A stretch of 48,289 bases of DNA, from assembly GCA_024681935.1 (NCBI GenBank), contig JAIKZX010000161.1, positions 1 to 48,289 on the forward strand, given 5' to 3'. The stretch's first letter is position 1, and the number at the start of each line of letters is the position of its first letter. This document shows positions 27,026 through 39,153 of this stretch, one piece after another. A program made the translations under genes and the position numbers. Below the pieces are notes generated by a model, which worked only from the letters and a program-made list of their open reading frames with translations, ran no database searches and had not been told where the DNA came from. Source of the stretch: Fretibacterium sp. (GTDB lineage Bacteria; Synergistota; Synergistia; Synergistales; Aminobacteriaceae).

Positions 27026-27556
27026 TCAAAAAACAAGCAGCGGTATCACTCTGGAGCATTGATCCAGTTTTGCCGGGCCCAGGTAGCGGGAATCGAACCC
27101 GCGGGGCGAATCGCTGAGCAGCCACACCTCATTGAACGCAAGCTGACAGGGAAGAGGAAAGGCCCGCATCACGTTTCCCACCCTGTCCATGGACAGAGGA
27201 ACACTGTTGGGAACAACCTCCCCCGCGACGCGCAGCAAACCGTCTTTATCTGCCTCAACCCTTTCCCCCGGGAGGCCGGCGACGCGCTTCAGGTATGGGG
27301 TCACCCTTCCCCAGTCATTTTTGCGGTGATAGGCTTCGGGGACCCAATCGGTGGAGCGGAATGCTTCAAAGGGGATCTCCACAATGTCGCCCCGCTGAAC
27401 GGGGCCATCCCTCCGCAGCCACAGCCCCACCGGCACAGAGGGCGATGTGTTCACAACGAACAGCCCCGAACAGAGCAGAGCGGCAGCCGCAGTCCCAAAA
27501 ATCAGGACGCAGATTGCCGCTTTCTGTTCGGGACGCAGTTTTTTCTGCTTTTTCAT
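27026..27556 (-). CDS. traF: Conjugative-transfer signal peptidase TraF (S26 family, pilin-maturation type)
   Basis: NTSPSVPVGLW, YLKRVAGLPGERV and GFDSRYLGP match the TraF/S26 motifs. Confidence 0.8.
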   Translation of the reverse strand: MKKQKKLRPEQKAAICVLIFGTAAAALLCSGLFVVNTSPSVPVGLWLRRDGPVQRGDIVEIPFEAFRSTDWVPEAYHRKNDWGRVTPYLKRVAGLPGERVEADKDGLLRVAGEVVPNSVPLSMDRVGNVMRAFPLPCQLAFNEVWLLSDSPRGFDSRYLGPAKLDQCSRVIPLLVF

Positions 27557-27565
27557 GTCAGCCGC

Positions 27566-28885
27566 TTATCTTCCCTGGCTGGAGTTCCACACCCTTGGGA
27601 AGATAATGTCATGCTGAACAAAGATCGTGAAGCGATATCCCGGCCTCACCGTGATGGTGGGCTGACGGTTCATTCCCTTTGAGATAATCTGCGTCATGGC
27701 TTCCGCGATGGCCGACGCCACACGCTCTGAGAGGATGCCGCCCACGTCCTTCCGGTTGCTGTTGTTATTATTATTGTTATTGTTGTCCGGGGCGGCAAGT
27801 TCGACCCCCGCTCCCAGCAGGGACACCAGCAGCGCAGAGGTAATCATGGAACCCCAATGTTTGTCCACCCGCTGCTTGAAGCCCGTGTACCCGGCCTGAT
27901 CCGCGCCCTGAAGGTTGTCCAGCAGCAGCGACGAGCCGTCCGGGAAGATCAGCCGGCTCCAGACCACCAGAGCACGATTCTGTCCGTAGCTGATCTGGTT
28001 GTCGTAGGTCCCGATAAGCCTCGAGCCGCGTGGGATGAGGAGGTAGCGTCCCGTTGCCGTGTCCCACACATTCTCTGAGACCTGGCCAATCAGGTTGCCG
28101 GGCAGGTCGGAATTGAGGCCGGAGATCAGCACGCAGGGCAGAACAGCACCCGCCTTCAGCTCAAGAGCGCTGACTGGGAAGGCCCGCGTGTGCTGGGAAT
28201 ACTCCGCGGGAAGAGCACGCTGACGAAATGCCTCCTTACGGGCCCAGCCATTGGGATCATTGCTGCTCCCCGTCACATCTCCCGCGTCTGGCATGAGCCC
28301 CATCGTCCCTGCAGCTCCCTGCTGCGCGGGGAGCGTGGCCCCCTGCGCGGCTGACAAATCGTTCTGCAATGCGGTCTGCTGCCCCTGAGGCTGCCGGGAA
28401 CTCGGCCCAAATCCCTGAATGGCGGTGGGGGAAGAGGCTGCCTGAAGACGCTGAAGCTGGCTCTCTCTTCTCCTGTCGGTGACGCTGTGCCCCATGTCCC
28501 TGGTTTGGGACGGGACATAGGCTGGACGCACCATCCGCCTTACCTCAGGCTGCGGAGTTTCCGGCTCCGGAGGAGGCGGAGGGGTGGGCTGCGTCTTCTG
28601 ACGGGACGGTTCCGGCTGCACGGGAGTCACTGCCGGCGTAGGGGCCGGCTCCGTCTGGCGCGGCGGCGGCGGGATGACAATGGACGCGCTGCGTGACGCC
28701 TCAATAACCTCCGACGGGGCCCTGCTGCCCACAATCTCGTCGCCGGAGTTGAGGATTGCCATCGTCACCAGCGTGAACAGGACCCCGGCCGAAACGAAGA
28801 TAAAGAGAGCAATCCGCTTGGTGGACGATTTGTCCAGTTTCGTCCGTACCGGATCAAAACGGTTTGCAGATTCCTCCTGCGCCAT
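27566..28885 (-). CDS. trbI: T4SS protein TrbI/VirB10
   Basis: N-terminal TM helix, a Pro-rich linker (PPPPRQTEPAPTPAVTPVQPEP…), and a C-terminal TrbI domain (AGAVLPCVLISGLNSDLPG…RPGYRFTIFVQHDIIF). Confidence 0.9.
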   Translation of the reverse strand: MAQEESANRFDPVRTKLDKSSTKRIALFIFVSAGVLFTLVTMAILNSGDEIVGSRAPSEVIEASRSASIVIPPPPRQTEPAPTPAVTPVQPEPSRQKTQPTPPPPPEPETPQPEVRRMVRPAYVPSQTRDMGHSVTDRRRESQLQRLQAASSPTAIQGFGPSSRQPQGQQTALQNDLSAAQGATLPAQQGAAGTMGLMPDAGDVTGSSNDPNGWARKEAFRQRALPAEYSQHTRAFPVSALELKAGAVLPCVLISGLNSDLPGNLIGQVSENVWDTATGRYLLIPRGSRLIGTYDNQISYGQNRALVVWSRLIFPDGSSLLLDNLQGADQAGYTGFKQRVDKHWGSMITSALLVSLLGAGVELAAPDNNNNNNNNSNRKDVGGILSERVASAIAEAMTQIISKGMNRQPTITVRPGYRFTIFVQHDIIFPRVWNSSQGR

Positions 28886-29976
28886 CAGTTCCCGCTCCCT
28901 CTCACCGTCCTGAGACGGTTAGCTGTCCGGCTCTCCCTGATGTTGCTGTCGGCCAGCTTGTCCCTGCGGACAATCACAACCCTCTTGGATCCGATCTTCA
29001 TGTACGCCTTGTCAAAGAGGCGGTCCACGATATAATAGCGGCCCTTGACGCGGAAGTTCGTCATCGTCTCCTTCCGGTCCACAACGATATAGAACGCGGG
29101 CGTTTCGCTGAAGCGCGCGGGCATCCGGATATAGGTTTTGTTCCCATCGTCAAAGACGGCCTCCGGGCTCCAGTCCACCTTGCTCGTGTTGGTGATGGCA
29201 TACAGGGTGTAGAGTTCCTCAAGGTCCACACCGGACATGGGGCCCTGAATCTCATCCTCAAGGGATTTCTGCTTTTTTTCCTCCTGGCGCTTGAAGAGAT
29301 AGGTCAGATCATTGTCCTGATAGGAGAAGGCCACGCCGCGAAGGTACTCTACATTCTCAGAGGACGTGAAGTCAAGGTTGTACGTCCGCCGGTCTGTGTG
29401 GATGAGCAGGTTGGTGGAGATGCCCGGCTGGCTGGGCTTAACCACGATATGGGCAACGGCAAGCCCGTTCTTCATGGACTGGGAAGGAGAGAACTGCCAC
29501 CGCACAGAGTCCCCGGCGTGGACGCCCATGATTTCCTCCCCGGGCTCCAGCGCAACATCGGTCATGCGGAGAGGACGGCAGGTGATGACGGGCACCACTT
29601 CGCCGTAGGGGTAGATGACATAGCCCTGCTCCCCCATGAAGGGGTTGGCCGCGGTCTTGGCGGCGTCAAAGTCCTTCTTCATTCCCATCACAAGCTGGTC
29701 GTAGCGGCGCAGCTTTATCTCCATATCCAGCTTCTCCCACTGCTGGATGCGCTCACGCTCCTCTTTTGCCTCCTGAAGGGCCTGATACTGCTCCTCAGCA
29801 GCCTGTATCTCAGCAAGATCTTTCTGCTGCTGCTGATAGACATAATCCTCCTCCGCGCCGACCTCCGAGGGAAGGATAATCCGCCCCGTCTCCGGGTCAT
29901 AACCGGGAACAGCGGCAAGAGCAGGAACCGCAAACAAGCACGCCACAAACAATGGGACAAAAATCTTTTTCTTCAT
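28885..29976 (-). CDS. trbG: T4SS protein TrbG/VirB9 with an N-terminal coiled-coil extension
   Basis: Signal peptide, a Gln/Glu-rich coiled coil, then VirB9 blocks (ITCRPLRMTDVALEPGE, THIVVKP-like, TNLLIHTDRRTYNLDF, DDGNKTYIRMP). Confidence 0.88.
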   Translation of the reverse strand: MKKKIFVPLFVACLFAVPALAAVPGYDPETGRIILPSEVGAEEDYVYQQQQKDLAEIQAAEEQYQALQEAKEERERIQQWEKLDMEIKLRRYDQLVMGMKKDFDAAKTAANPFMGEQGYVIYPYGEVVPVITCRPLRMTDVALEPGEEIMGVHAGDSVRWQFSPSQSMKNGLAVAHIVVKPSQPGISTNLLIHTDRRTYNLDFTSSENVEYLRGVAFSYQDNDLTYLFKRQEEKKQKSLEDEIQGPMSGVDLEELYTLYAITNTSKVDWSPEAVFDDGNKTYIRMPARFSETPAFYIVVDRKETMTNFRVKGRYYIVDRLFDKAYMKIGSKRVVIVRRDKLADSNIRESRTANRLRTVRGSGN

Positions 29977-30000
29977 CTTCTCATTACCTCACTTGCGTTA

Positions 30001-30678
30001 TCAGTCGTCATCAGTGACGACATCCTGAGCCATGTTCAGCTCAGTGATATAGATTCCCAATGGATTCTTAATCACATCAGCCAGATCGCGGACGGGCGAA
30101 ATAGCGATGGTGACAATGGCGCGCCATTCTGTGCTGCTCGTAACTTCACCCCGGCGGATCTTGTTCTCCGTCCAGAGGACCTGCCAGGAAGTGCCTCCTC
30201 CACCCACCGCCAGAACAGACTTCACCTCCACCAGCGTCGTGTTGCCGTCGGTGTTGCTGAAGGGGTTGTTCTCCCGGTAGTAGTGGGTCACAATGCTTTC
30301 AGCGGAGCTTCCCCGCGCAAGGTAGCCGTACACGTCATTGACCATCGCCCTCTGCGCGTAGGTGTCCACCACAACCGTCTTGAAGTTTGAAAAAAACCGG
30401 CTCAGCGATGCCACCACCACCCGCATGTCAGCGGCTGATCCCTGCTCTGCGGACTTGATGGCGACGGAGTATCCCTGCTTGTCCACCTGCACAACGTAGG
30501 GAATCACCTTATTCTGTGTCGACATCCAGATCATCATTCCGCCGAAGGCAAGACAAAGCATCAGCAGGAAGAAGGCAATCTGCCGCCAGCGGGCTGCCTC
30601 GTTCACCGCCGCGCCGTACCGGTCCCCATACTCCGCCCGGGCGGAGAGATAGGGATTTTCCTCATATTCCCTTTTCAT
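30001..30678 (-). CDS. trbF: T4SS protein TrbF/VirB8
   Basis: NPYLSARAEYGDRYG, a single TM helix, IPYVVQVDKQG, and a periplasmic NTF2-like region. It overlaps the trbL stop. Confidence 0.88.
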   Translation of the reverse strand: MKREYEENPYLSARAEYGDRYGAAVNEAARWRQIAFFLLMLCLAFGGMMIWMSTQNKVIPYVVQVDKQGYSVAIKSAEQGSAADMRVVVASLSRFFSNFKTVVVDTYAQRAMVNDVYGYLARGSSAESIVTHYYRENNPFSNTDGNTTLVEVKSVLAVGGGGTSWQVLWTENKIRRGEVTSSTEWRAIVTIAISPVRDLADVIKNPLGIYITELNMAQDVVTDDD

Positions 30679-31970
30679 CTCTTACCTTCTCCCTCTGTTA
30701 ATGTCGTCCGGACCGCACCTGTGGTCCCCGTTTCGACGCGTCGGTCCGTTGTCCGGGCCGCGTCCAGACGCGCACCATAGGCGCTGTCCGATGGGACGTA
30801 GTTCGTCATCGCCTCCGCGTTGGCAGGGTTCTCCACAGTGGGGGCGGCCTGATTGGACGCAAGAGGATTGTAGCCAGCGCCGCTCAGCATTCCATCCTGC
30901 CCCCTGATGTACTCCCTCATCGCGTAGCCCTCAATTGTCGCTGCAGGGCCTGGAGGCGGCGGCGCTCCCGCTGCGCCCCTTTCCTCATACTCAGCATGGT
31001 GTGAACCTCTCAGCGCGTCCATCACGGAGGCCACGAAGCCACCGCCATTCTGGGCGTTCACCGTGGGGGCGCCGGTCACGGATGCGTACACAAGCTGCGT
31101 TGCCGGGTGCCCAAAGGTCATTGCGGCCCGGTTCACCACAGCCTGCGCGATGTTGGGCACGTAACGTGCCGCCATGAAGATACAAATGACACCGCCAAGA
31201 ATCTGGCCTGCCGCCGTGATGAGCGTCGTCATGTCCTTAGCCTTGCTGAATTCCGCTTCCCAGGACGGGATGGAGCTCGTGGCGAGGCCGTAGACAATCA
31301 TAACCATTAGCAGCTTTATCCCCACGGAGATGGCGTAGCGCAGATAGCTCAGCGCGATGTCCCGAGTGTACTCAAACCCGCCGAATCCCAGCAGCACCGC
31401 CCCGCCGCAGATGACCAGGTGCATCTCAATCAGCGCCAGGGCAAAGGTCCCCGCTATCATGGCAATCACCACCAGAATGATGACACCAATCAGGGTCACT
31501 CCGATGAAGTCTCCCCAGCCGGCGTTCCAGCCCTTCTCCACCAGACTTCCGTACATGCGAATCCCGGCGGAGAGGATGTTGTCTGGGGCGATGGACGAGG
31601 TTCCTCCAATTTTGCTCCCCATCTCCACAAAGGAGTTCACGACGGTCTGTGGGACGTTGTTCGACATAATCCATGAAAATATCCCCACATAAAGAATCCA
31701 CTTCGCCAGCAGTGCTATGGCGGTCCCCAGATTGCTCTCTCCGTTCAGAAGCATACGGATAAGCCCCAGCGCAAGAGACAGTGTCGCAAGCCCGATAAAA
31801 AGACTCCGCGCATACTCCAGCAGCTTTTCCATCATGCCGGAGCTGGTGAACTTCTGGACGTAATCCAGCGTAGAGTCGATGCCGCCGTAGTTAACGGCGG
31901 CGGCCCATGCAGCATGGGTGAGGAGTGTGAACGCCGCAATCAGGAAATAAAACAAAATCCCGCGCCGCAT
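30675..31970 (-). CDS. trbL: T4SS inner-membrane protein TrbL/VirB6
   Basis: Signal-like N-terminus, several TM helices, GFGGFEYTRDIALSYLRYAISVGIKLL, and a Pro/Gly-rich C-terminal tail. Confidence 0.85.
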   Translation of the reverse strand: MRRGILFYFLIAAFTLLTHAAWAAAVNYGGIDSTLDYVQKFTSSGMMEKLLEYARSLFIGLATLSLALGLIRMLLNGESNLGTAIALLAKWILYVGIFSWIMSNNVPQTVVNSFVEMGSKIGGTSSIAPDNILSAGIRMYGSLVEKGWNAGWGDFIGVTLIGVIILVVIAMIAGTFALALIEMHLVICGGAVLLGFGGFEYTRDIALSYLRYAISVGIKLLMVMIVYGLATSSIPSWEAEFSKAKDMTTLITAAGQILGGVICIFMAARYVPNIAQAVVNRAAMTFGHPATQLVYASVTGAPTVNAQNGGGFVASVMDALRGSHHAEYEERGAAGAPPPPGPAATIEGYAMREYIRGQDGMLSGAGYNPLASNQAAPTVENPANAEAMTNYVPSDSAYGARLDAARTTDRRVETGTTGAVRTTLTEGEGKR

Positions 31971-31973
31971 AGC

Positions 31974-32708
31974 TTAGAACCCGAGCGCGTAGCTCTTGGC
32001 GGCCGGCTTGTGTTTCTTCAGGCCGTCGCAGGCCTCGAGGATGCTCTTGCCCTTCTGCTCCCTCGCGTCCAGCGCGTCCCGCTCGTATTCCAGGTAGGAC
32101 GCCAGAAGCCCCTGAACGACGTTCTCATTCCGGGCCAGCATGATATTGGAGTGATCCAGCAGCGCGCCGAGCGTCTGTATTGCCTGGGTCTGCCCTTCGG
32201 GATTGCGCACCAGATCCATCAGCTTTGAGCGCAGCTTATCGTCTGAGTCGAAGTCCTTGGCGGTCAGGTTGACGCTCTTCAGGTAGGCGTTCATCGTGGC
32301 CCGCCATCCCTTGTTTCTGTTCTCTATCCGCGTTTTGAGCTGGTCGACCGTCAGGCCGCTCTGCCATTCGGGATGCCGCTTCTTCAGCTCCCATTCCAGA
32401 TTGGCCGTCACATGCGTGATGGTGTCCGACGCCTCCAGAATCTGCCGGGCTTTCTTAAAACTGTTCACCAGCGCCGTACGTTTGTTCTTAAGGTCATTCA
32501 CGTCCTTGGCGTCCAGGTGCTTCAGCATCTTCTTCTGCTGCTCAATCATCTCCTTGAGCTGCTTCACCTCGTTCTCCACGGCCTCCAGTATAGATTTCTG
32601 CGTGGACTGCTGGGCTAAAAGGCATTCTCCAACACGTGAAAAAAGCAGGGTAAACGCCGCCGCCAGCAGAAGGCATCTGAACCTCTTGAAGTCTGCGAAG
32701 CTCATCAT
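31974..32708 (-). CDS. trbJ: TrbJ/VirB5-like secreted coiled-coil protein (paralogue 3, 244 aa)
   Basis: Signal peptide and coiled coil. It occupies the position between trbE and trbL. Motifs GQTQAIQTLGA and C-terminal KSYALGF are shared with the two upstream paralogues. Confidence 0.65.
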   Translation of the reverse strand: MMSFADFKRFRCLLLAAAFTLLFSRVGECLLAQQSTQKSILEAVENEVKQLKEMIEQQKKMLKHLDAKDVNDLKNKRTALVNSFKKARQILEASDTITHVTANLEWELKKRHPEWQSGLTVDQLKTRIENRNKGWRATMNAYLKSVNLTAKDFDSDDKLRSKLMDLVRNPEGQTQAIQTLGALLDHSNIMLARNENVVQGLLASYLEYERDALDAREQKGKSILEACDGLKKHKPAAKSYALGF

Positions 32709-32720
32709 TACCGTCTCCCC

Positions 32721-33632
32721 CTAAAAGCCAAAGTTATAGGTCCCCGTCGTGGTGGGCTGTGATTTGGCCGCGTTTCCAGCAATGACAGCGATGTTGTTCC
32801 GCACAGCCTCCTGTTGGGAGCGTTCAATCTCCTGACCGCAGAGGCAGGCCTCCAGGGTCATAATCATCTCCGCCCCCGTCCGGTCGATGAGGGCGTCTCC
32901 CTCCGCCGCCACCGCGCCCAGACTTTGAAGCACGTAGGTCTGACCGTGATCCACGGCGTCAGTGTAAGCCTTGAGGATTGTGTTCATCATTGACTCCCGT
33001 GCCCGCTGCTCCTCATCAAAGTTACGGGCGGTCACATTCATCGCTTTCATCATGCCGTCCATAAACTTCTTCCATCCTTCTGCAACTTCCTTTTCCACGT
33101 TTGACATGCTGTTGAAGCCAGTATACTCCGGAAAACGTTTTTGGAAGTCCGCGTCAAAATTTGAGGACCAGGCCATGACATTGGCAGCCTGAAGTGTCTT
33201 TCGCAACTCCTTGTAAGCCACCATGAACGCATCCAGGGCATCCGGGTTCCCCTTCTTGACCATCGCCTTCTGTTGTTTGACAATGGTCTTCATATGCTCG
33301 ACGGCCTGCTTCAGTTGTTTCTCCGTGTCAACCTGTGGCTGCTTCGTCGCAAACCATACCAAATTGGAATCGAAGGTGTTTTCATCCTTTCCACAGGCAC
33401 AGAACAGCGGAATCGCCTTCCCAACAGGGACACCGAGTATCACTATTGAGTCAAGGAGTTTCCTGAGAGGAACCGCAACTAAAGCGGTGAGGCAGTACTT
33501 CACCGCCTTGATTTCATATTTCTTGTTCACCGGGTAAATCGCACCCGGCGCAAAAACAAACATCGCGGCAGAGACTGTCAGGACGATAATCATCGGCATC
33601 ATCAGGAGCTTGTTGTTAAGCAGTTTTTTCAT
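32721..33632 (-). CDS. TrbJ/VirB5-like protein (paralogue 2, 303 aa) with an extra N-terminal Cys-containing module
   Basis: FPEYTGFNSM…GWKKFMDGMMKAMNVTARNFD, GQTYVLQSLGA, and C-terminal GTYNFGF. Confidence 0.55.
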   Translation of the reverse strand: MKKLLNNKLLMMPMIIVLTVSAAMFVFAPGAIYPVNKKYEIKAVKYCLTALVAVPLRKLLDSIVILGVPVGKAIPLFCACGKDENTFDSNLVWFATKQPQVDTEKQLKQAVEHMKTIVKQQKAMVKKGNPDALDAFMVAYKELRKTLQAANVMAWSSNFDADFQKRFPEYTGFNSMSNVEKEVAEGWKKFMDGMMKAMNVTARNFDEEQRARESMMNTILKAYTDAVDHGQTYVLQSLGAVAAEGDALIDRTGAEMIMTLEACLCGQEIERSQQEAVRNNIAVIAGNAAKSQPTTTGTYNFGF

Positions 33633-33644
33633 CCCGGGTCCCCC

Positions 33645-34757
33645 CTAAAAGCCAATTTTATGAGACTTGCCCTGGTCCTTCGTCTTCGCTGCGCTTTCTG
33701 CTATCGTCACGACGTTGGTCCGTATGGCCTCCTCGCGGGCCCGTTTCATCTGGTCCGTGAAGTCCCTCATATCCTGAAAACGGCTGACAGCCAGATCGTT
33801 CCGGTCCATCATCTCGGATCTCTGGTCCGCTGCGCCGCCTACGGCCTGGAGTTTCCGCGTCTGGCCCTGAGCCGGCAGTGGGAACGATGTCGAGATCGAT
33901 GGAGGCCACAGGGTAACAAAGAAATCCTTAAAGATCGACATGATTCCCTTGGGAATAAGTGTTATCGGGTACTGGGGACTAAGGTCCAGTGCCGCGTAGA
34001 CCATCCCGGACAAGAGGTCCGCCGTCAGCATTTTGGTGATGTCCGCGATGTTGATGCTGCCATTTCCGGGATCCTGCTCCATCAGTTGGCTGTACACCCT
34101 GTCAAAGGCTGTCATCACTCCATCGTAGTTGCCGGCGATGACATTCATGGAGCGCATGTGAGCCAATTCCAGCTCACGCCACCGTTTCGCCAAACGCTCC
34201 TCCTCATCCGTCATGGAAGTGAACCCCGTGTAGCCGGGAAAATCCCAGCCCAGCTGCGAGTCCGTGTTCGTAATGGCGGAGTACGCTTTGCCCTTCTGGA
34301 GTTCGGCCCTTGATTGCGTAAAGGTCTTCTTGAAAGTTGAAGGCCAGTTCATTGAGCCCTTATGGATCATGGCCTTTTCCTGCTCCAGAAGTGCTTTTGT
34401 CTCCACTTCCTTCGTTACTGTTTTGTAGAACACATCGACCTGCATGGGTTCAAGCTGCGGGCCTTTCGTCTTGAATCCGACATCCCATTTGCCTGTGAAT
34501 CCCGCGCCCCGTATCGCGCTCCAGACGATACTCCCCAGCTTGGAGAGAATATCTCCAATGTTATCGGACTCTCCAAAGTCTATGGGTATGCATGTACACG
34601 TCTTCCATCCATCTTTTGTGGCCGGGCAGTCGCCCATGCGAATGACCTCCATAATCCAGTCCGGGTCCTTCTCACCCGGCGCTGGCCCCGCTGCCCCAAG
34701 CGTGATGAGGCATAACGCCACAGCGGTCACCTTGAAGAACTTAGACAGCCGGCTCAT
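33645..34757 (-). CDS. TrbJ/VirB5-like protein (paralogue 1, 370 aa) with an extra N-terminal Cys-rich module
   Basis: FPGYTGFTSM…RWRELELAHMRSMNVIAGNYD, GQTRKLQAVGG, and C-terminal KSHKIGF. Its start overlaps the trbE 3' end by 17 nt. Confidence 0.55.
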   Translation of the reverse strand: MSRLSKFFKVTAVALCLITLGAAGPAPGEKDPDWIMEVIRMGDCPATKDGWKTCTCIPIDFGESDNIGDILSKLGSIVWSAIRGAGFTGKWDVGFKTKGPQLEPMQVDVFYKTVTKEVETKALLEQEKAMIHKGSMNWPSTFKKTFTQSRAELQKGKAYSAITNTDSQLGWDFPGYTGFTSMTDEEERLAKRWRELELAHMRSMNVIAGNYDGVMTAFDRVYSQLMEQDPGNGSINIADITKMLTADLLSGMVYAALDLSPQYPITLIPKGIMSIFKDFFVTLWPPSISTSFPLPAQGQTRKLQAVGGAADQRSEMMDRNDLAVSRFQDMRDFTDQMKRAREEAIRTNVVTIAESAAKTKDQGKSHKIGF

Positions 34758-37236
34758 GATGGGGTTCTCCGCTGTGCATTTCCGCGTCCAGTTTTTTCCA
34801 CTCTTCGGCCCAGTCCGGCAGTTCTCGCTCCTTCAGCCATTCCACTGGCCAGTCCCGGCCGTACTGCTTCTTCAGCGCCATGATACGGCTCAGCTCGTCG
34901 CCGCTGCTGGCCCCAACAAACGCCAGGGCCACTGGGCCCAGCCCAAGATTGAACACCCGCCGGCCGTTGGGAGAGATAATATAATACTCCCGTTTCCGAA
35001 CCATGTTCGCCACCAGATTGATCTGACGTTCGTTAAGCTGCAGGAACTCACGGTAGAACTCACCCAGCTGCTGGCCTTTTGCATCAGGGTTTGCCAGCAG
35101 GATTTTCGTCGGGCAGCTCTCGAACACGGCATCGCGTATCGTGCTATTCACCACGTCGGAAATGGACTGTGTGGCCAGAATAACGGCGCAGTTCAGCTTA
35201 CGGAACGTCTTGAGCCAGCCGCGTATCTTCTCGGAGAAAAGGGCGTCCCTCATGGCTGTCCAGGCCTCGTCGACCACAAGGAGCGACGGCGCGCCCTTCA
35301 GCCGGCGCTGTATCTGGAAGAACAGATAGGTGAGAACCGCCGGGGCAATCTTTTCCCGCTCAAGCAGACCTGAAATTTCAAAGGCGTTGAATGCGGCGTA
35401 GTTGATGTCGTCGCGGTCTCCGTCCAGCAGATAACCTCCGCTCTCGCTTAAGCTGTAGTAACTCAGGGCGGACTTAATTTCCTCGTCCTGCACGGACGTG
35501 ATGTACTCAGTCATTGTGCGCTCGGCAGCACAGGTGGTGCTTTCAGCCAGATTCCGCAGCGCTTCGTTCAGCAGAACACGCCGCTGCGGGGTGACAAGGC
35601 CGGGTGCCACAAGCTCAATGAGCATTTCCAGCCACTCTGCGGCCCAGGACATCACTTCCGGGTCATCAATCTGCGCCAGGGGACAAAGGTTGATTTCATT
35701 GTCTGCCGAGCCCAGATCATAGAACACGGAGTTGTCCAGAGACTCGCACAGCGGGTAGATGGAGCGGCCATTGTCGAAAAAGAAAATCTGTCCCCGGTCA
35801 TAACGCTCGAACTGTGCCGTGATGGTGGCCAGCAACGTTGATTTTCCGGAACCCGTGGGCCCCAGAATGAGAGTGTGCCCCACGTCTCCGCTGTGCAGGT
35901 TCAGGGAGAAGGGCGTGCCCCCCGCAGCGGCGGCCTGAAGCAGTGCCGGGGAGTTGGGCGGATAGAATGGGCAGGGACAGGTCTTGGATCCCTGCCAGTC
36001 GTTGGAGAGCGGGATAAGGTCCGCAAAGTTAAGGGCCGTGATGAGAGGCTTTCGGATGTTCTCCTGTCCGTGCCCGGGCAGAGAACCCAGAAAAGCCTCA
36101 AGGTTGTTCATGGTCTCCATGTGGGCGCTGCATCCCGCCCGCTCAAAGACCTTCATAATCTCCCGCGATGTGGCCTCCAGCAGTTCAGGGTCCTTGTGGC
36201 GCAGGATAATGGTGGAGGTGTGGTTCCCGAAGGCAGTGTCGCCGCTTCGGGCATCCTTCAGGGCGAAGTCCAGGTCCTGCACCATCGCCGCAGCGTCCTG
36301 GTCCACACGGAAGTTCTCGACGCCGGTGATCTGCGACGAAAGGCTCTTCACCTTCTGGGTCCACTGGCGGCGCAGCTTTTCAATTTGAGAGATGGATTCC
36401 TGAATGTCCGTCAGCAAAAAGCGGTTGGACCAGCGGAAGGCCACCGGCATTGTCTGAAGGCTGTACAGTATCGTGGGGAAAGTCCCCGAGGGGTAGTTCA
36501 TCAGGGAGATGCACTGCACGTACTCCCCGTTGTAGTTCACTCGGCTGCCGTTCAGGCAGTCCCTGGCCAGAAAACAGTCAAGGTAATAGGGAAAAGCCGG
36601 CAGACGCGTGGGCTGCCAATATCCGTTGACGCAGGCGTTGACAGCTTCCAGCAAATCTGACGTGCCGGAGCAGCCACTGGAATCATCCGGATGGAACACC
36701 ATGCGCCGGACCTGCATACTGAGGCTCAGAGAATCCTGAAGCCTCTTCATGACCGTCTCGAACCGCGCAAGCTGGCGCTCGACAATCTGTTCTTCCTCCG
36801 CATTGTCCAGACCAAACATCGCCTTCTGGAGGCGCCGCATCAGGGCGGCTTTCTCAAAGGCGGGGGGAACGTAGGTGACGAACATCGCCTGCACGGATTC
36901 GAAGTGCCCGGACGCCTGGTGGAACTGGGCCTGACGTTCCATGTCGATGAGCTTCGTCGTCGTCTCCCTGAAATCTCCCCTCGGGTAGTCCGTCGTCTCG
37001 CGCCGGAAGAACTCGAAATGCACGCACCAGCGCACATCAAGCTGCCCCACTGTATGCGCCATCATCGCGCTGAGATGCTCCAGCTCGCGGGCGGTGGAAC
37101 TCTCAAGATCAGGTCCGGTGAGCCAGAACCCGGCGAGGAAGCCTCCGTCCTTCAGCCCCATAACCCCAGGGGCCACCATATGGGAATAACGGAGCAGCTC
37201 GGCAAAGCCGTCCCCTTCCTGCCGACGTCTTGGCAT
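34741..37236 (-). CDS. trbE: T4SS ATPase TrbE/VirB4
   Basis: 831 aa with Walker A GPTGSGKST and a Walker B region LLVVDEAW. The N-terminal half is VirB4-like. Confidence 0.93.
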   Translation of the reverse strand: MPRRRQEGDGFAELLRYSHMVAPGVMGLKDGGFLAGFWLTGPDLESSTARELEHLSAMMAHTVGQLDVRWCVHFEFFRRETTDYPRGDFRETTTKLIDMERQAQFHQASGHFESVQAMFVTYVPPAFEKAALMRRLQKAMFGLDNAEEEQIVERQLARFETVMKRLQDSLSLSMQVRRMVFHPDDSSGCSGTSDLLEAVNACVNGYWQPTRLPAFPYYLDCFLARDCLNGSRVNYNGEYVQCISLMNYPSGTFPTILYSLQTMPVAFRWSNRFLLTDIQESISQIEKLRRQWTQKVKSLSSQITGVENFRVDQDAAAMVQDLDFALKDARSGDTAFGNHTSTIILRHKDPELLEATSREIMKVFERAGCSAHMETMNNLEAFLGSLPGHGQENIRKPLITALNFADLIPLSNDWQGSKTCPCPFYPPNSPALLQAAAAGGTPFSLNLHSGDVGHTLILGPTGSGKSTLLATITAQFERYDRGQIFFFDNGRSIYPLCESLDNSVFYDLGSADNEINLCPLAQIDDPEVMSWAAEWLEMLIELVAPGLVTPQRRVLLNEALRNLAESTTCAAERTMTEYITSVQDEEIKSALSYYSLSESGGYLLDGDRDDINYAAFNAFEISGLLEREKIAPAVLTYLFFQIQRRLKGAPSLLVVDEAWTAMRDALFSEKIRGWLKTFRKLNCAVILATQSISDVVNSTIRDAVFESCPTKILLANPDAKGQQLGEFYREFLQLNERQINLVANMVRKREYYIISPNGRRVFNLGLGPVALAFVGASSGDELSRIMALKKQYGRDWPVEWLKERELPDWAEEWKKLDAEMHSGEPHHEPAV

Positions 37237-37276
37237 ACCTAACCCTCCCGAAAATTAAACTCTCAGTATTTCATGC

Positions 37277-37591
37277 TCAATATTTCCTGTCCTGGCGGCT
37301 GACCCGTGAGGACGCCACATAACTGTCCTGATACTTCACCGACCGTTGAAATATCCTCATCGCAAGAGGGTCCTTCTTGCCCATGACCCTCAACACCTGA
37401 AGGCCGACGAAGAAAATGACGATGGCGATGAAAAAATTCACAAAATTGCCGCTGGCCAGTCCTCCGGGAAACCCCAGAGCCATACAGGCCAGCAGCAGAA
37501 GGAGAAACAGGGTGCGGTCACAGCCAAAGATGAACTGCGGCCGGGTCAGGCTTCTCCTCACGGTTGCGATGCGCAGATGCTCTTCGTTCAC
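37277..37591 (-). CDS. trbD: T4SS protein TrbD/VirB3
   Basis: 104 aa with RSLTRPQFIFGCDR followed by two TM helices. GTG start. Confidence 0.75.
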   Translation of the reverse strand: MNEEHLRIATVRRSLTRPQFIFGCDRTLFLLLLLACMALGFPGGLASGNFVNFFIAIVIFFVGLQVLRVMGKKDPLAMRIFQRSVKYQDSYVASSRVSRQDRKY

Positions 37592-37647
37592 GATTTAATC
37601 GCTTCCAATCGTCTGTGCCCTGCGTGTCCCTTTGCCGCGCATCCGGC

Positions 37648-37998
37648 TCAGAGCAGAAGGAAGCCCTCAGTGGTGATAAACAGCTTGACGACGCTGGCCA
37701 AAGCGCCCAGCATAGATCCCACAAGGACGACCATCATAACGGAGCGGCCAAAGCTGCTGAGCTGACCTCCGAAGATGAGCATTCCGCCGGCAAAGAAGAG
37801 GCCGACCATGGAGATAAGGAGTGCCGTCTTGCCGGAGAGAGCATCAATGAGCTTCTCCATGCCGGTGTTCCAGGCCACTGTGTCCGTCTTGGCCATTGCC
37901 GTCACGGGCACGCAGAGCATAGCCAGCAGAAACACCGCTGCAAAGACCGCCGTGCGGCGGTCAAAAAGCCACCTGGAAACGCTGCTGCCGTTCATCAT
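37648..37998 (-). CDS. trbC: T4SS pilin precursor TrbC/VirB2
   Basis: Long leader ending AMA|K and two hydrophobic helices. I chose the ATG at 37998 (AAAGGAG RBS 8 nt upstream) over the TTG at 38016. Confidence 0.75.
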   Translation of the reverse strand: MMNGSSVSRWLFDRRTAVFAAVFLLAMLCVPVTAMAKTDTVAWNTGMEKLIDALSGKTALLISMVGLFFAGGMLIFGGQLSSFGRSVMMVVLVGSMLGALASVVKLFITTEGFLLL

Positions 37999-38048
37999 AA
38001 AGAAAACTCCTTTCAAAATAAAAAGAAATATATAACGCTAAAGCAGAA

Positions 38049-39044
38049 CTACTCCGCTTTGACGCTCTGCTCCTCCGGGGTCTGGGTGTTCTCCCTCAGG
38101 TCCCTGAAAATATATTCTCCGTTCTTCACGCCGTCAACTGCCACCAACTCCGTCAGCTTAGGGCCGATTTTTGGGTCGCGGATCAGGAATGCGACGATGT
38201 CAACGGCTTCTCCCACCAGCTCCCGCATAGGTGCCTCGGACACCTCAGAAATCAGCTGCTCGATGCGGAGCAGCCCGGCGCGGGCATCATTGGCATGGAC
38301 CGTGCAGACTCCGCCGGGGTGCCCTGTGTTCCAAGCCTTCACCATGTCCAGCGCCTCCTTGCCCCTTACCTCACCCACAATGATGCGGTCCGGTCTCTGG
38401 CGCATGGTGATCTTCAGCAAATCCTGCATGGATACCCTATCACTGGTCCTCATGGCAATAAAGTTATCCACTGTACATTGAAGCTCCGCCGTGTCCTCAA
38501 GAATCACCAGACGGTGCTGAGGCGTCAGCAGCTTCATCTCATTGATGATGGCATTGACAAAGGTGGTCTTGCCTGTGCCCGTTCCGCCCACGACCAGAAT
38601 ATTCTTTCGCGTCCTGATGGCCTTGCGCAGAATTTCCACATCCCCCTGCGTCATCCGCCCGCTCTGGACGTAGTCCGAAAGAGGGAACACGGAGGAGGCT
38701 TTCTTCCTCAGGTTGAAGGACGGGTGCAGCACAATAGGAGGGATAACGCCTTCCACGCGGCTGCCGTCGCCGGGAAGCTCGCCTTCCACCTTGGGGTTTT
38801 GGGTGTTGATGACCGTTCCCAGCATGTGGGCGACGGTGCCAAGCATCTGGAGCGCCTGGACCTCAGACATATCGCAGAGGTACTCCATGCCTTTGCCCAG
38901 GCGATCTGTCCAGACCTTGCCGTCAGGGTTCAGCATAACCTCCACCACCGTGGTGTCGTCCATGGCCTGCCGTATTTTTTCGCCCATCTCCCGGCGCAGT
39001 TTGTTCAGGTTCCTCCGCGTCACCTCGTCCGTTGCCCTGCTCAT
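38049..39044 (-). CDS. trbB: T4SS ATPase TrbB/VirB11
   Basis: Walker A GGTGTGKTT, and blocks LVILEDTAEL and RQRPDRIIVGEVRG. I trimmed the track ORF to the ATG at 39044 (331 aa). Confidence 0.9.
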   Translation of the reverse strand: MSRATDEVTRRNLNKLRREMGEKIRQAMDDTTVVEVMLNPDGKVWTDRLGKGMEYLCDMSEVQALQMLGTVAHMLGTVINTQNPKVEGELPGDGSRVEGVIPPIVLHPSFNLRKKASSVFPLSDYVQSGRMTQGDVEILRKAIRTRKNILVVGGTGTGKTTFVNAIINEMKLLTPQHRLVILEDTAELQCTVDNFIAMRTSDRVSMQDLLKITMRQRPDRIIVGEVRGKEALDMVKAWNTGHPGGVCTVHANDARAGLLRIEQLISEVSEAPMRELVGEAVDIVAFLIRDPKIGPKLTELVAVDGVKNGEYIFRDLRENTQTPEEQSVKAE

Positions 39045-39069
39045 CCTTCTACCCCCGTTCAATGTCGAA

Positions 39070-39098
39070 ATATTAATATAATGATTTGTTTTTTTCAA
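39070..39098 (-). promoter_or_regulatory. Candidate sigma-70 promoter of the trb operon (TTGAAA-17 nt-TAATAT); the -10 lies inside the 10-bp palindrome ATATTAATAT
   Basis: On the minus strand, TTGAAA is at 39098-39093 and TAATAT at 39075-39070. The palindrome spans 39070-39079. The region is AT-rich within an otherwise GC-rich window. Confidence 0.4.
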
Positions 39099-39101
39099 TA
39101 G

Positions 39102-39130
39102 TTGGCCGCAATAAAACTTTTTGTTATACT
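39102..39130 (+). promoter_or_regulatory. Candidate divergent promoter for the hydrolase-like gene (TTGGCC-17 nt-TATACT)
   Basis: TTGGCC at 39102-39107 and TATACT at 39125-39130. AGGAG RBS precedes the ATG at 39154. Confidence 0.35.
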
Positions 39131-39153
39131 TACATAATAGGAGATGATGCCCG

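What the first reader, a model, noticed from the sequence alone, without database searches (positions are those of the whole stretch)
27026..39098. Complete Trb/P-type T4SS operon with no coupling protein, relaxase, integrase or att repeats in view, set among core genes
Twelve tightly packed minus-strand genes, many with overlapping stop and start codons, encode TrbB/VirB11, TrbC/VirB2, TrbD/VirB3, TrbE/VirB4, three TrbJ/VirB5-like proteins, TrbL/VirB6, TrbF/VirB8, TrbG/VirB9, TrbI/VirB10 and a TraF peptidase. Missing from the window are a VirD4/TraG coupling ATPase, a relaxase, an oriT-like region, a VirB1 transglycosylase, a VirB7 lipoprotein, entry-exclusion or partition genes, and a recombinase. 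By eye the cluster has the same GC-rich codon style as the flanking rnf, rpoBC and small housekeeping genes. This pattern fits a chromosomally domesticated mating-pair-formation machine used for something other than self-transfer, such as effector delivery, DNA release or uptake, or adhesion. The host is probably a Synergistota-type diderm, a group whose T4SSs are, as far as I know, little studied.
Basis: partly seen in the sequence, partly recalled or inferred. Interest (0 to 1): 0.72.

Follow-up and report, generated by a model that had tools for sequence, protein, structure and literature searches.

The report
Domesticated Trb type IV secretion operon
A gut Synergistaceae (Fretibacterium-like) bacterium carries a conjugation-derived Trb pilus/secretion machine with no DNA-transfer genes in view. 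Diverged relatives hold it at the same chromosomal site, and its fast-evolving TrbJ (putative pilus-tip) genes have multiplied, so it probably serves cell contact rather than self-transfer.

Summary
Window 27026-39044 (minus strand) encodes twelve intact, tightly packed genes: trbB-C-D-E, three TrbJ paralogues, trbL-F-G-I and traF. No coupling protein (T4CP), relaxase, integrase, transposase or att-like repeat occurs anywhere on the contig, and the window is the whole 48,289-bp contig of a Fretibacterium-like MAG.

- The same trbB-to-traF module sits between the same esterase and solute-binding-protein genes in four diverged lineages.
- The module's GC follows each host's GC (38-60%).
- Core Trb genes are under purifying selection like the flanking genes (dN/dS 0.06-0.25), and codon usage matches the host.
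- The orphan TrbE proteins form one clade (bootstrap 100). Its sister clade sits on plasmids or ICEs with relaxase, ParA, ArdC, topoisomerase III, Rep or integrase.
- Orphan modules lost the Xre-type regulator and topoisomerase III and expanded TrbJ from 1-2 to 3-4 copies. Some copies gained N-terminal extensions, and the copies evolve fast (39-60% identity where TrbE is 89%).

The closest analogue is Bartonella Trw. Function is inferred, not shown. Whether the genome has a T4CP elsewhere could not be tested. This is a new member of the known "MOBless, exapted T4SS" kind, and I found no published description of one in Synergistota.

The parts
38049..39044 (-). trbB (VirB11-type ATPase), 331 aa. 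The likely start is the ATG at 39044.
   Evidence: TIGR02782 TrbB_P scores 419 bits, above the cut-off. Walker A GGTGTGKT and Walker B LVILED are present. Start codon and ribosome-binding site were read.
37648..38016 (-). trbC (VirB2-type pilin precursor). The start may be the ATG at 37998 or 37995. The protein ends ...TTEG-FLLL.
   Evidence: PF04956 scores 36.8 bits, above the gathering score. The core is nearly identical to pilins of the mobile relatives, and four residues follow a conserved Gly. In RP4, TraF removes four C-terminal residues and cyclises TrbC (PMC13434634).
37277..37591 (-). trbD (VirB3)
   Evidence: PF05101 E 5e-12. TrbD PRK13823 scores 59.5 bits.
34741..37236 (-). trbE (VirB4 ATPase), 831 aa
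   Evidence: PRK13830 scores 730 bits, and PF03135 and PF19044 also match. Walker A and B motifs are intact. dN/dS is 0.075 against L022.
33645..34757 (-). TrbJ paralogue J1, 370 aa. It has an N-terminal Cys-containing extension (conserved C..CxC) and a mid-protein insertion.
   Evidence: Paralogous to J2 (E 2e-18). The J1 family matches the J3 family at hhalign probability 98.6%. Only 15 relatives were found among 1.84 billion representatives. Identity to the L022 orthologue is 39% and dN/dS is 0.50.
32721..33632 (-). TrbJ paralogue J2, 303 aa, with an N-terminal extension
   Evidence: Paralogous to J1 and J3. There is a weak TrbJ PRK13874 hit. Identity to the L022 orthologue is 46%, with large indels, and dN/dS is 0.35.
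31974..32708 (-). TrbJ paralogue J3, 244 aa, the canonical-length TrbJ
   Evidence: TIGR02780 TrbJ_Ti E 3e-10, below the cut-off. hhalign against Rhizobium, Bradyrhizobium and Terriglobia TrbJ gives probability 98.9%, E 1e-17.
30675..31970 (-). trbL (VirB6), 431 aa, with a variable Ala/Gly/Pro-rich C-terminal tail
   Evidence: TIGR02783 scores 135.9 bits, above the cut-off. PF04610 matches. The core is nearly identical to L022 while the tail is variable.
30001..30678 (-). trbF (VirB8)
   Evidence: PF04335 E 9e-34.
28885..29976 (-). trbG (VirB9), with an N-terminal extension of about 115 aa
   Evidence: PF03524 E 1e-49. TrbG_Ti scores 176.9 bits.
27566..28885 (-). trbI (VirB10), with a Pro-rich N-terminal half and a poly-Asn loop
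   Evidence: PF03743 E 2e-63. PRK13831 scores 234 bits.
27026..27556 (-). traF (S26-family pilin-maturation peptidase)
   Evidence: PF10502 scores 48 bits, above the gathering score. TraF_Ti E 5e-20. The motifs SVPxGLW, KRVAGLPGD and GFDSRYLG are conserved in all relatives.
39045..39153 (.). A 109-bp AT-rich divergent intergenic region between trbB and the esterase gene, with a promoter-like site. The Xre-type regulator of the mobile relatives is absent.
   Evidence: TTGAAA-17-TAATAT at 39098-39070 on the minus strand. Sequence read. Mobile relatives carry an HTH_3 gene directly upstream of trbB.
39154..40089 (+). Esterase-like gene, the conserved chromosomal neighbour that marks the upstream boundary
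   Evidence: An orthologue lies next to trbB in L014, L013 (separated there by a sulfatase gene) and L022-24.
25311..26123 (-). Solute-binding protein (SBP_bac_3), the conserved chromosomal neighbour downstream. A strong terminator-like site follows it at 25280-25254.
   Evidence: An orthologue directly follows traF in L013 and L014. Terminator-like site.

Best explanation
This is an exapted ('MOBless') Trb/P-type (MPF-T) type IV secretion system. It descends from the mating-pair-formation module of a Synergistaceae conjugative plasmid or ICE. It became fixed in the chromosome of an ancestor of a Fretibacterium-related clade and has been inherited vertically since.

What it keeps is the set that builds the envelope channel and pilus:
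- the TrbB and TrbE ATPases;
- TrbD;
- the TrbC pilin and its maturase TraF;
- TrbL and TrbJ;
- the TrbF/G/I core.

What it lacks is everything seen next to trb in the mobile relatives that handles or regulates DNA transfer: relaxase and NikA, topoisomerase III, ArdC, ParA, the Xre regulator, Rep and integrase.

What it has gained is extra, rapidly diverging TrbJ paralogues. TrbJ is the counterpart of VirB5, the minor pilin at the pilus tip. Several of the new copies carry novel Cys-containing N-terminal extensions.

Most likely mode of action (inferred). Sec-exported TrbC is trimmed by four residues and probably cyclised by TraF. TrbB and TrbE then drive its assembly into a short surface pilus on the TrbF/G/I-TrbL scaffold. 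The pilus is capped by alternative TrbJ variants that mediate specific contact with host or partner cells. This is the logic of Bartonella Trw, not self-transfer of DNA.

Status of the steps:
- Shown: gene content, homology, synteny, selection and phylogeny.
- Inferred: pilus formation, tip location of TrbJ, and the adhesive role.

My confidence is about 0.85 for 'vertically inherited, functional, non-self-transmissible T4SS' and about 0.4 for the adhesion/contact function specifically.
For: Gene identities come and TrbJ homology.

Orphan architecture with chromosomal genes on both sides is seen in:
- the window;
- L022-24, TrbE 89% identical to the window's, with the same neighbours DUF362, Macro, CutA-like, LigT, nitroreductase and esterase | trb | LRR;
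- L014, TrbE 84%;
- L013, TrbE 78%;
- L020/L021, TrbE 78%, at a different site on contigs up to 203 kb.

The flanking esterase (55-63% identity) and SBP (51%) are orthologous and at least as diverged as the Trb proteins.

Module GC tracks host GC (module/flanks): 57.6/57.4, 60.1/61.3, 50.6/53.1, 46.7/41.6 and 37.8/32.3%. Codon usage equals that of the host genes.

Selection:
- Against L022, core Trb genes have dN/dS 0.06-0.25, the same as flanking genes (0.07-0.25), with overlapping dS.
- Against L013 and L014, synonymous sites are saturated yet all ORFs are intact.

Phylogeny. The orphan TrbE proteins form a clade of 16 with bootstrap 100. Its sister clade carries mobile-element genes in all four members whose context was read, one of them IS-disrupted. 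The two outgroup loci read (L018, L019) also carry mobile-element genes, though a relaxase was seen only in L019.

TrbJ copy number is 1 in the distant mobile loci, 2 in the sister mobile clade and 3-4 in the orphans. The J genes evolve fastest (39/46/60% identity, dN/dS 0.50/0.35/0.29) and carry large indels in the N-terminal and mid regions.

Catalytic and ATPase motifs are intact, and the pilin has a four-residue tail after a conserved Gly. This matches RP4 TraF/TrbC processing (PMC13434634).

Precedents:
- Bartonella Trw lacks the coupling protein, has amplified and fast-diversifying trwJ and trwL, and mediates adhesion (PMC2883598).
- MOBless T4SSs arose repeatedly within MPF-T (PMC3548315).
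Against: - No expression, pilus or adhesion data exist.
- The contig is one fragment of a MAG, so a T4CP or relaxase elsewhere in the genome is not excluded.
- In the mobile relatives no T4CP was seen within 10 kb of trbE or of the relaxase either. Linkage is evidently loose in this family.
- The pilin gene is single and conserved, unlike in Trw.
- The high J-gene rates could reflect relaxed constraint and not diversifying selection, since dN/dS stays below 1.
- AlphaFold models of J1 and J3 were of low confidence (pLDDT about 50). A VirB5-like fold is therefore not demonstrated, and the TrbJ = VirB5 equivalence rests on the literature.
- trb dS values average slightly higher than those of the flanks, so occasional recombination among relatives cannot be excluded.
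Confidence: 0.6

Rival explanations
1. Helper mating apparatus. The chromosomal Trb machine is kept because it serves, in trans, mobilisable plasmids or integrated elements that bring their own relaxase and coupling protein. It would then still move DNA, just not itself.
For: The core proteins remain 74-76% (TrbE) and 75-78% (TrbB) identical to those of co-circulating Synergistaceae plasmids and ICEs. Type A and type B loci occur in the same metagenome sample, ERZ28653955. T4CP genes are not linked to trb in the mobile relatives, so a T4CP acting in trans is plausible. TrbB (VirB11) is retained.
Against: Selection for a helper role acts on the mobile elements and not on the host, so it explains long vertical retention poorly (synteny, GC amelioration). 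It also does not explain the expansion and rapid divergence of TrbJ or the loss of the regulator and topoisomerase III. No mobilisable element or oriT is seen on the contig.
Confidence: 0.17
2. Coupling-protein-independent protein secretion system, like Bordetella Ptl or Brucella VirB. It would export periplasmic or Sec-delivered effectors or toxins to the medium or into neighbouring cells.
For: The channel components and both ATPases are complete and under strong purifying selection. T4SSs without a T4CP that secrete proteins are known exceptions (PMC4027160). A signal-peptide-bearing BspA-type LRR gene follows traF by 61 bp in the window and in L022.
Against: No toxin or effector gene is conserved with the module. 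The LRR gene is absent from L013, L014 and L020 and is truncated in the window. The retention of pilin, TraF maturase and multiplied TrbJ points to the pilus and not to a substrate.
Confidence: 0.12
3. Ordinary ICE or conjugative plasmid module whose relaxase, T4CP and integrase simply lie on other contigs of the fragmented MAG.
For: The window is a whole contig. The closest non-orphan relatives are real ICEs and plasmids.
Against: The module is flanked on both sides by host genes (27 kb and 9 kb here, including rnf and rpoBC). The same neighbours occur in lineages whose genomes differ by up to 29 GC points. There are no att-like repeats. Relatives on contigs read to 109 kb (the same protein occurs on contigs up to 203 kb) show the same clean boundaries.
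Confidence: 0.04
4. Decaying remnant of an integrated element with no current function.
For: All transfer-processing genes have been lost. One relative (L001) shows real decay, with an IS256-family transposase replacing trbB.
Against: Twelve intact ORFs persist despite saturated synonymous divergence. dN/dS is 0.06-0.25. Catalytic motifs are intact.
Confidence: 0.03
5. DNA uptake or DNA release machine (ComB-like or gonococcal GGI-like).
For: It is a MOBless T4SS. TrbI has a sub-threshold match to ComB10 (113 bits against a cut-off of 300).
Against: By my recollection, ComB systems lack VirB11 and VirB5, whereas both are kept or expanded here. GGI needs a relaxase (PMC3548315). No competence genes are nearby.
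Confidence: 0.04

Closest known systems
Bartonella Trw type IV secretion system (erythrocyte adhesion)
   Same: It is a chromosomal derivative of a conjugation MPF-T module. No coupling protein is seen with it. The VirB5-type minor pilin genes are tandemly amplified and diverge much faster than the rest of the machine, and the other subunits are conserved (PMC2883598, compared).
   Different: The origin is independent: Trb/Ti-type gene order trbBCDEJLFGI plus traF, not IncW R388-type. The host is a different phylum, a gut commensal. Only TrbJ is amplified; the pilin is single and conserved, and there are no trwH/trwI-like co-amplified genes. The J copies carry N-terminal Cys-containing extensions. 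Adhesion is not demonstrated.
Ti-plasmid / rhizobial Trb (P-type) conjugative mating-pair-formation system
   Same: The gene order trbB-C-D-E-J-L-F-G-I is the same. The best sequenced plasmid matches are rhizobial TrbE at about 42% identity (L004 and L005). TrbB and TrbL pass the NCBIfam P-type equivalog cut-offs.
   Different: There is no trbK or trbH. traF is attached to the end of the operon. There are three TrbJ copies. No Tra (relaxase/T4CP) region, oriT or quorum regulators are present, and the module is chromosomal and vertically inherited.
Synergistaceae conjugative plasmid/ICE trb modules
   Same: TrbE is 74-76% identical in the sister clade (L011, L015, L016/17) and 61% in L019. Gene order is the same, the pilin core is almost identical, TraF is the same, and TrbJ has the same C-terminal ...GF(K/N) motif.
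   Different: Those loci carry a relaxase with NikA, ParA, ArdC, an Xre regulator upstream of trbB, topoisomerase III between trbI and traF, and Rep, resolvase or integrase. They have only 1-2 short TrbJ genes. The window has none of these accessory genes and has 3 TrbJ genes.
MOBless T4SS as a class (Guglielmini, de la Cruz & Rocha 2012)
   Same: The system is chromosomal, has no neighbouring relaxase or integrase, and is nested among conjugative systems in the VirB4 tree. That matches the pattern described as repeated exaptation (PMC3548315).
   Different: Most MOBless T4SSs keep a T4CP (PMC4027160), and none is seen here. Synergistetes is not mentioned in that paper (0 occurrences).
Bordetella Ptl / Brucella VirB (T4CP-less effector secretion)
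   Same: It is an MPF-T machine working without a dedicated coupling protein.
   Different: No toxin or effector genes are associated with it. Pilus genes are retained and expanded.

Membership tests
Trb / P-type (MPF-T) type IV secretion system | VirB4-family ATPase (TrbE) with an N-terminal CagE_TrbE_VirB domain and a P-loop domain | tested here: met
   PF03135 and PF19044 match. PRK13830 scores 730 bits, E 3e-219. Walker A and B motifs are intact.
Trb / P-type (MPF-T) type IV secretion system | VirB11-type ATPase of the TrbB_P equivalog | tested here: met
   TIGR02782 scores 419.4 bits against a cut-off of 304.55.
Trb / P-type (MPF-T) type IV secretion system | Pilin (TrbC/VirB2), VirB3, VirB6, VirB8, VirB9 and VirB10 homologues in one operon | tested here: met
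   All six exceed their Pfam gathering scores. The order is trbB-C-D-E-J-L-F-G-I.
Trb / P-type (MPF-T) type IV secretion system | TrbJ (the VirB5 counterpart) | tested here: met
   Hits are below the NCBIfam cut-off (40 bits against 100.55). The family profile matches canonical TrbJ over 215 columns at probability 98.9%, E 1e-17. The equivalence TrbJ = VirB5 fold was not confirmed: AlphaFold pLDDT was about 50, and there was no PDB or Pfam hit even for canonical TrbJ.
Trb / P-type (MPF-T) type IV secretion system | TraF-type S26 peptidase for pilin maturation, with a matching pilin C-terminus | tested here: met
   PF10502 is above the gathering score. Ser/Lys-box motifs are conserved. The pilin ends with four residues after a conserved Gly. 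Cyclisation itself cannot be tested here.
Self-transmissible conjugative element (ICE or conjugative plasmid) | Relaxase (MOB) gene linked to the T4SS | tested here: not met
   No relaxase domain occurs in any ORF of the 48-kb contig. Relaxases are present in relatives L011, L019 and L025.
Self-transmissible conjugative element (ICE or conjugative plasmid) | Type IV coupling protein (VirD4/TraG) | tested here: not met
   None is on the contig. A T4CP was also not seen within 10 kb in the mobile relatives.
Self-transmissible conjugative element (ICE or conjugative plasmid) | Integrase/recombinase and att direct repeats at the boundaries (ICE), or a replication/partition module (plasmid) | tested here: not met
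   No integrase, Rep or ParA was found. No repeats bracket the module. The only tRNA gene is 21.6 kb away.
Exapted, T4CP-less adhesion T4SS of the Bartonella Trw kind | Chromosomal, derived from a conjugation system, with no coupling protein | tested here: inconclusive
   Derivation and chromosomal fixation are shown. T4CP absence is shown only for the contig.
Exapted, T4CP-less adhesion T4SS of the Bartonella Trw kind | Amplified VirB5-type genes that diversify faster than the core | tested here: met
   There are 3-4 TrbJ copies against 1-2 in mobile relatives. Identity is 39-60% against 81-89% for TrbB, E, F and G. dN/dS is 0.29-0.50 against 0.06-0.25.
Exapted, T4CP-less adhesion T4SS of the Bartonella Trw kind | Amplified pilin (VirB2) genes | tested here: not met
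   There is a single trbC, 84% identical to the L022 orthologue, with dN/dS 0.15.
Exapted, T4CP-less adhesion T4SS of the Bartonella Trw kind | Mediates specific adhesion to a target cell | not testable with these tools
   This needs pilus imaging and attachment assays.
ComB-type DNA-uptake T4SS | ComB10 equivalog; no VirB11 or VirB5 | tested here: not met
   ComB10 scores 112.7 bits against a cut-off of 300. TrbB is present and TrbJ is expanded.

The most novel reading that the evidence does not exclude
A vertically inherited Trb pilus without a coupling protein, carrying interchangeable and rapidly diversifying TrbJ tip proteins, acts as a partner-specific attachment organelle in gut and rumen Synergistaceae. 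It could tether these amino-acid fermenters to host epithelium or to hydrogen-consuming syntrophic partners such as methanogens. That would be an independent, non-proteobacterial and non-pathogenic re-invention of the Bartonella Trw strategy.
Probability: 0.2. Interest if true: 0.75.

Novelty: new member of a known kind. Interest (0 to 1): 0.45.

Why it matters
Exaptation of conjugation machines is documented mostly in proteobacterial pathogens. This case has unusually clear comparative evidence. The mobile ancestor type, the domesticated descendants and a decaying copy all occur within one family of a poorly studied diderm phylum that is common in rumen, gut and oral communities.

It also gives concrete targets, the hypervariable TrbJ paralogues and their N-terminal extensions, for testing how Synergistaceae attach to hosts or partners. 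And it cautions against counting such loci as ICEs in mobilome and resistome surveys.

Tried and rejected
1. The genome-contig scan with a TrbE alignment was swamped by the Walker A pattern.
2. The exact look-up of the window's TrbE found nothing. Contexts had to come from homologues.
3. Search for a T4CP near trb or near the relaxase in the mobile relatives: none within 10 kb in L011, L015-19 or L025, and none among the ORFs of at least 200 aa tested in L031 and L032. I could therefore neither show where the ancestral T4CP sits nor obtain a Synergistaceae T4CP to search with.
4. AlphaFold2 models of J1 (13 sequences) and J3 (23 sequences) gave pLDDT 51.8 and 50.2. They are all-helical but unusable. 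The Foldseek search of PDB returned only generic helical bundles, none with E <= 0.001.
5. Profile searches of PDB sequences with the J3, J1 and canonical TrbJ alignments gave nothing meaningful. Pfam has no hit even for canonical TrbJ.
6. dN/dS against L013 and L014 could not be computed because synonymous sites are saturated. A closer relative, L022, was fetched instead.
7. att-like or terminal repeats around the module: only short chance matches.
8. PLSDB plasmids: the nearest are Rhizobiales at about 42% identity, and no Synergistota plasmid is present.
9. Literature searches on Synergistetes or Fretibacterium with T4SS or conjugation found nothing specific.
10. Alignment of the trbB upstream regions across orphan loci showed no clearly conserved operator.
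11. I considered an interbacterial-killing X-T4SS and rejected it. By my knowledge it needs VirD4 and XVIPCD effectors, and none are present.

Full report
**1. What is there**

The minus strand of window 27026-39044 carries twelve contiguous ORFs. Profile searches identify them as follows:
- TrbB: TIGR02782, 419 bits, above the cut-off.
- TrbC pilin: PF04956.
- TrbD/VirB3: PF05101.
- TrbE/VirB4: PRK13830, E 3e-219.
- TrbL/VirB6: TIGR02783, above the cut-off.
- TrbF/VirB8: PF04335.
- TrbG/VirB9: PF03524.
- TrbI/VirB10: PF03743.
- A TraF-type S26 peptidase: PF10502.

Three ORFs lie between trbE and trbL (J1 370 aa, J2 303 aa, J3 244 aa). None has an above-threshold family hit. They are paralogues of each other. 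A profile of J3 orthologues aligns end to end with canonical TrbJ of Rhizobium, Bradyrhizobium and a Terriglobia MAG (hhalign probability 98.9%, E 1e-17). The J1 family aligns to the J3 family at 98.6%.

Walker motifs in both ATPases and the S26 catalytic boxes of TraF are intact. The most plausible trbB start is the ATG at 39044, preceded by a ribosome-binding site, and not 39098. A 109-bp AT-rich region with a promoter-like site separates it from a divergently transcribed esterase gene.

**2. What is not there**

All remaining ORFs of the contig were scanned. They are:
- a cell-surface protein fragment, a GT2 glycosyltransferase, a DUF6056 protein and GAPDH;
- tRNA-Leu, rpoB and rpoC;
- a DUF5940 protein, a PlsX-like protein, MsrA, a transporter and a GNAT acetyltransferase;
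- rnfBAEGDC;
- a family-3 solute-binding protein and a BspA-type LRR protein;
- beyond trbB: esterase, nitroreductase, LigT, a CutA-like protein, a Macro-domain protein, a DUF362 ferredoxin, YbaK, Eda and a MatE transporter.

There is no coupling protein, relaxase, integrase, transposase, partition gene, VirB1 or VirB7. No direct or inverted repeat brackets the module. The gaps inside the operon (3-56 nt) leave no room for trbK or trbH.

One important qualifier: the window is an entire 48,289-bp MAG contig, so what lies beyond it is unknown.

**3. Host**

The window's TrbE falls in a 90%-identity cluster. The named members of that cluster come from 'Fretibacterium sp.' and 'Synergistaceae bacterium' MAGs. 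A Fretibacterium MAG contig carries a 78%-identical fragment (L009). More distant homologues (42-46%) are also mostly from Synergistaceae MAGs. From the study-style labels in the sample names (XIEF21, GLEN20, WOLF17) I infer animal-gut or rumen metagenomes, but no source was checked.

**4. Two architectures among close relatives**

I fetched the genomic context of TrbE homologues.

Type A ('orphan') loci contain only trbB through traF, with chromosomal genes on both sides:

| Locus | TrbE identity to window | Context | TrbJ copies |
|---|---|---|---|
| window | - | esterase \| trb \| LRR, SBP_bac_3 | 3 |
| L022-24 | 89% | DUF362, Macro, CutA-like, LigT, nitroreductase, esterase \| trb \| LRR protein (same neighbours as the window) | 3 |
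| L014 | 84% | esterase \| trb \| SBP_bac_3 | 4 |
| L013 | 78% | esterase, sulfatase \| trb \| SBP_bac_3 | 3 |
| L003/L020/L021 | 78% | asd-hom-aspartokinase-SDF transporter \| trb \| PALP enzyme (contigs read to 109 kb; the same protein occurs on contigs up to 203 kb) | 4 |

The fourth TrbJ copy in L020 was confirmed by hhalign at probability 100%.

Type B ('mobile') loci carry mobile-element genes:
- L011: helicase, ArdC, relaxase, NikA, ParA, Xre-HTH | trbBCDE, two TrbJ, trbLFGI, topoisomerase III, traF | integrase.
- L015: similar.
- L016/17: Rep, resolvases and ParA on one side, topoisomerase III and ArdC on the other.
- L019 (61% TrbE identity) and L018 (44%): one TrbJ, with a relaxase-ArdC fusion in L019 and topoisomerase III in L018.
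- L001: a type B cluster beside rnpA-yidC-jag in which an IS256-family transposase has replaced trbB. This shows what real decay looks like.

**5. Phylogeny**

A neighbour-joining tree of 46 TrbE proteins (827 columns, 100 bootstraps) puts the window and 15 cluster representatives in one clade with 100% support. All five members whose context was read (the window and four representatives) are type A. The four members of the sister clade whose context was read are type B, one of them IS-disrupted, and so are the two outgroup members that were read.

All type A loci share three derived states: precise loss of topoisomerase III between trbI and traF, loss of the Xre gene upstream of trbB, and extra TrbJ genes with N-terminal extensions. 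This pattern fits one domestication event followed by descent, with one later relocation or rearrangement (the SDF/PALP context).

**6. Evidence for long vertical residence and function**

- The flanking esterase and SBP are orthologous between the window, L013 and L014 at 51-64% identity, while TrbE is 78-84%. The neighbourhood is therefore at least as old as the divergence of the module.
- Module GC follows the flanks over a very wide range (module/flanks): 57.6/57.4, 60.1/61.3, 50.6/53.1, 46.7/41.6 and 37.8/32.3%. Each copy has ameliorated to its own host.
- Within the window, trb codon usage differs from the other genes by less than two random halves of those genes differ from each other (0.031 against 0.039; GC3 73.2 against 72.2%).
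- Against the closest relative with context (L022), dN/dS is 0.064 (TrbB), 0.075 (TrbE), 0.086 (TrbG), 0.096 (TrbD), 0.107 (TrbF), 0.150 (TrbC), 0.21 (TrbI), 0.246 (TrbL) and 0.249 (TraF). Five flanking genes give 0.066-0.245, with overlapping dS (0.5-1.3).
- Against L013 and L014, synonymous sites are saturated, yet all twelve ORFs remain intact.

A dead remnant or a recently arrived island is thus excluded.

**7. The TrbJ paralogues are the fast-moving part**

Between the window and L022, J1, J2 and J3 are 39, 46 and 60% identical, with dN/dS 0.50, 0.35 and 0.29. Their lengths differ (370 vs 452 aa, 303 vs 342 aa) through large indels after nearly identical signal peptides.

J1 has only 15 detectable relatives (E <= 1e-3) among 1.84 billion cluster representatives. 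J3 has 43 homologues in the 5.8-billion-protein set, the nearest at 83% and the next at 63%.

J1 and J2 types share a conserved Cys...CxC motif in an extension that precedes the TrbJ core.

A 21-nt repeat at the 3' ends of J1 and J2 (32717-32737 and 33641-33661) is a trace of tandem duplication.

All paralogues, mobile and orphan, end in a conserved ...K-[L/I]-G-F(N) or ...PGFK motif, whereas rhizobial TrbJ proteins end in ...MEPRW. Its role is unexplained.

**8. Mechanistic reading**

In RP4, TraF removes four C-terminal residues from TrbC and cyclises it (PMC13434634). Here the pilin ends exactly four residues after a conserved Gly (TTEG-FLLL), and traF is the last gene of the operon.

From my own knowledge of the VirB and RP4 systems, not tested here: pilus production needs VirB2-VirB11 homologues plus TraF but not the coupling protein. 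The retained gene set is that pilus/channel set. The lost genes are the DNA-processing, regulatory and maintenance genes.

VirB5 is described as the minor pilin (PMC4027160). In Bartonella Trw the system lacks the coupling protein TrwB. It has amplified trwJ and trwL genes that diversify faster than the other components, and it mediates host-specific adhesion (PMC2883598).

By analogy, I propose a surface pilus with alternative TrbJ tips used for specific contact. This step is inference. The AlphaFold models of J1 and J3 were too poor to test a VirB5 fold, and neither Pfam nor PDB sequence searches recognise even canonical TrbJ.

**9. Rivals**

- A helper apparatus for mobilisable elements remains possible. 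No T4CP was seen within 10 kb of trbE or of the relaxase in any mobile relative, so T4CP genes are evidently unlinked in this family. Type A and type B loci also occur in the same sample.
- T4CP-independent protein secretion (Ptl/Brucella-like) is possible, but no conserved cargo gene accompanies the module. The LRR gene after traF is lineage-specific and truncated in the window.
- An ordinary ICE split across contigs, a decaying remnant, and ComB/GGI-like DNA uptake or release are each contradicted by specific results (sections 2, 4 and 6).

**10. Relation to what is known**

MOBless T4SSs are common. They are more often chromosomal, lack integrases and have arisen repeatedly within MPF-T (PMC3548315). 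Most keep a T4CP, with a few exceptions (PMC4027160).

This locus is a new member of that kind. Its special features are:
- a well-resolved origin from plasmids and ICEs of the same family;
- conservation across hosts that span about 30 GC points;
- amplification of TrbJ only, with novel N-terminal extensions;
- a host phylum for which my literature searches found no T4SS study.

**11. Verdict**

| Question | Verdict |
|---|---|
| Observation | confirmed |
| Interest | moderate (0.45): not surprising in kind to a T4SS specialist, but a clean, testable case in an understudied phylum |

Noticed in passing
window 31974-34757; L011, L015, L016, L020 TrbJ genes: Every TrbJ paralogue, in orphan and mobile loci alike, ends in a conserved C-terminal motif: K-[L/I]-G-F(N) or G-K-S-[Y/F]-x-P-G-F-K. 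A 101-aa membrane protein in L016 (13996-14301) ends the same way. Rhizobial TrbJ proteins instead end in ...MEPRW. The role of the motif is unknown.
   Followed up: partly
window 32717-32737 and 33641-33661: A 21-nt direct repeat, CCCCCTAAAAGCCAA(A/T)(G/T)TTAT, covers the stop region of J2 and of J1 plus the ribosome-binding site of the next gene. It is a footprint of the tandem duplication that produced the paralogues.
   Followed up: partly
window 26332-26964 (minus strand): A BspA-type LRR_5 gene with a signal peptide lies 61 bp downstream of traF with no terminator between them. It is only 210 aa. Only its first 125 aa or so align (56% identity) to the orthologue of at least 604 aa in L022, which also has a weak Flg_new domain hit. 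The window copy is probably truncated. The gene is absent from L013, L014 and L020.
   Followed up: partly
L013, L014, L020, L022 versus window: Orphan-bearing relatives span a very large GC range (flanks 32-61%) while keeping the same esterase | trb | SBP arrangement. This implies deep divergence within this Synergistaceae group.
   Followed up: partly
L011, L015-L019, L025, L031, L032: No T4CP (VirD4/TraG) domain was seen within 10 kb of trbE or of the relaxase in any mobile relative. I could not determine where, or whether, these plasmids and ICEs encode a coupling protein.
   Followed up: partly
L001 8012-9246: A type B trb cluster lies next to rnpA-yidD-yidC-jag with an IS256-family (Transposase_mut) insertion in place of trbB. 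It is an example of a decaying integrated copy, in contrast to the intact orphan modules.
   Followed up: no
window 27566-28885 (TrbI, around residues 375-385): There is a poly-asparagine run (NNNNNNNNSN) inside the conserved C-terminal TrbI/VirB10 domain. It is also present in L022. It may sit in the loop of the outer-membrane antenna region.
   Followed up: no
window 43793-44110 (minus strand): A 105-aa ORF matches only positions 119-160 of the 213-position DNA_alkylation repair profile. It is probably a pseudogene fragment.
   Followed up: no
window 1-1308 (plus strand): An open frame runs in from the contig start (436 aa) with no Pfam hit. It is Thr/Val-rich and repeat-like (…TVTVTVNDPSVTVTATP…) and ends in a hydrophobic anchor followed by KRKGKK. 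It is probably a cell-surface protein fragment.
   Followed up: no
window 21924-23225 versus 22523-23506 (minus strand): The mechanical RnfG ORF (433 aa, with the FMN_bind domain only at residues 338-423) overlaps the RnfD ORF by about 700 nt in another frame. The real rnfG start must lie much further downstream.
   Followed up: no
L017 and L020 (sample ERZ28653955): A mobile type B trb locus and an orphan type A locus occur in the same metagenome sample. The two system types therefore coexist in one community, which bears on the helper hypothesis.
   Followed up: no
L022 2229-5654 versus window 41565-41745: Relative L022 has an extra ABC-transporter segment (SBP_bac_1 plus a permease; L023 and L024 also have a PHP-domain gene there) between the Macro and CutA-like genes. 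The window lacks it. This is a small indel in otherwise conserved synteny.
   Followed up: no
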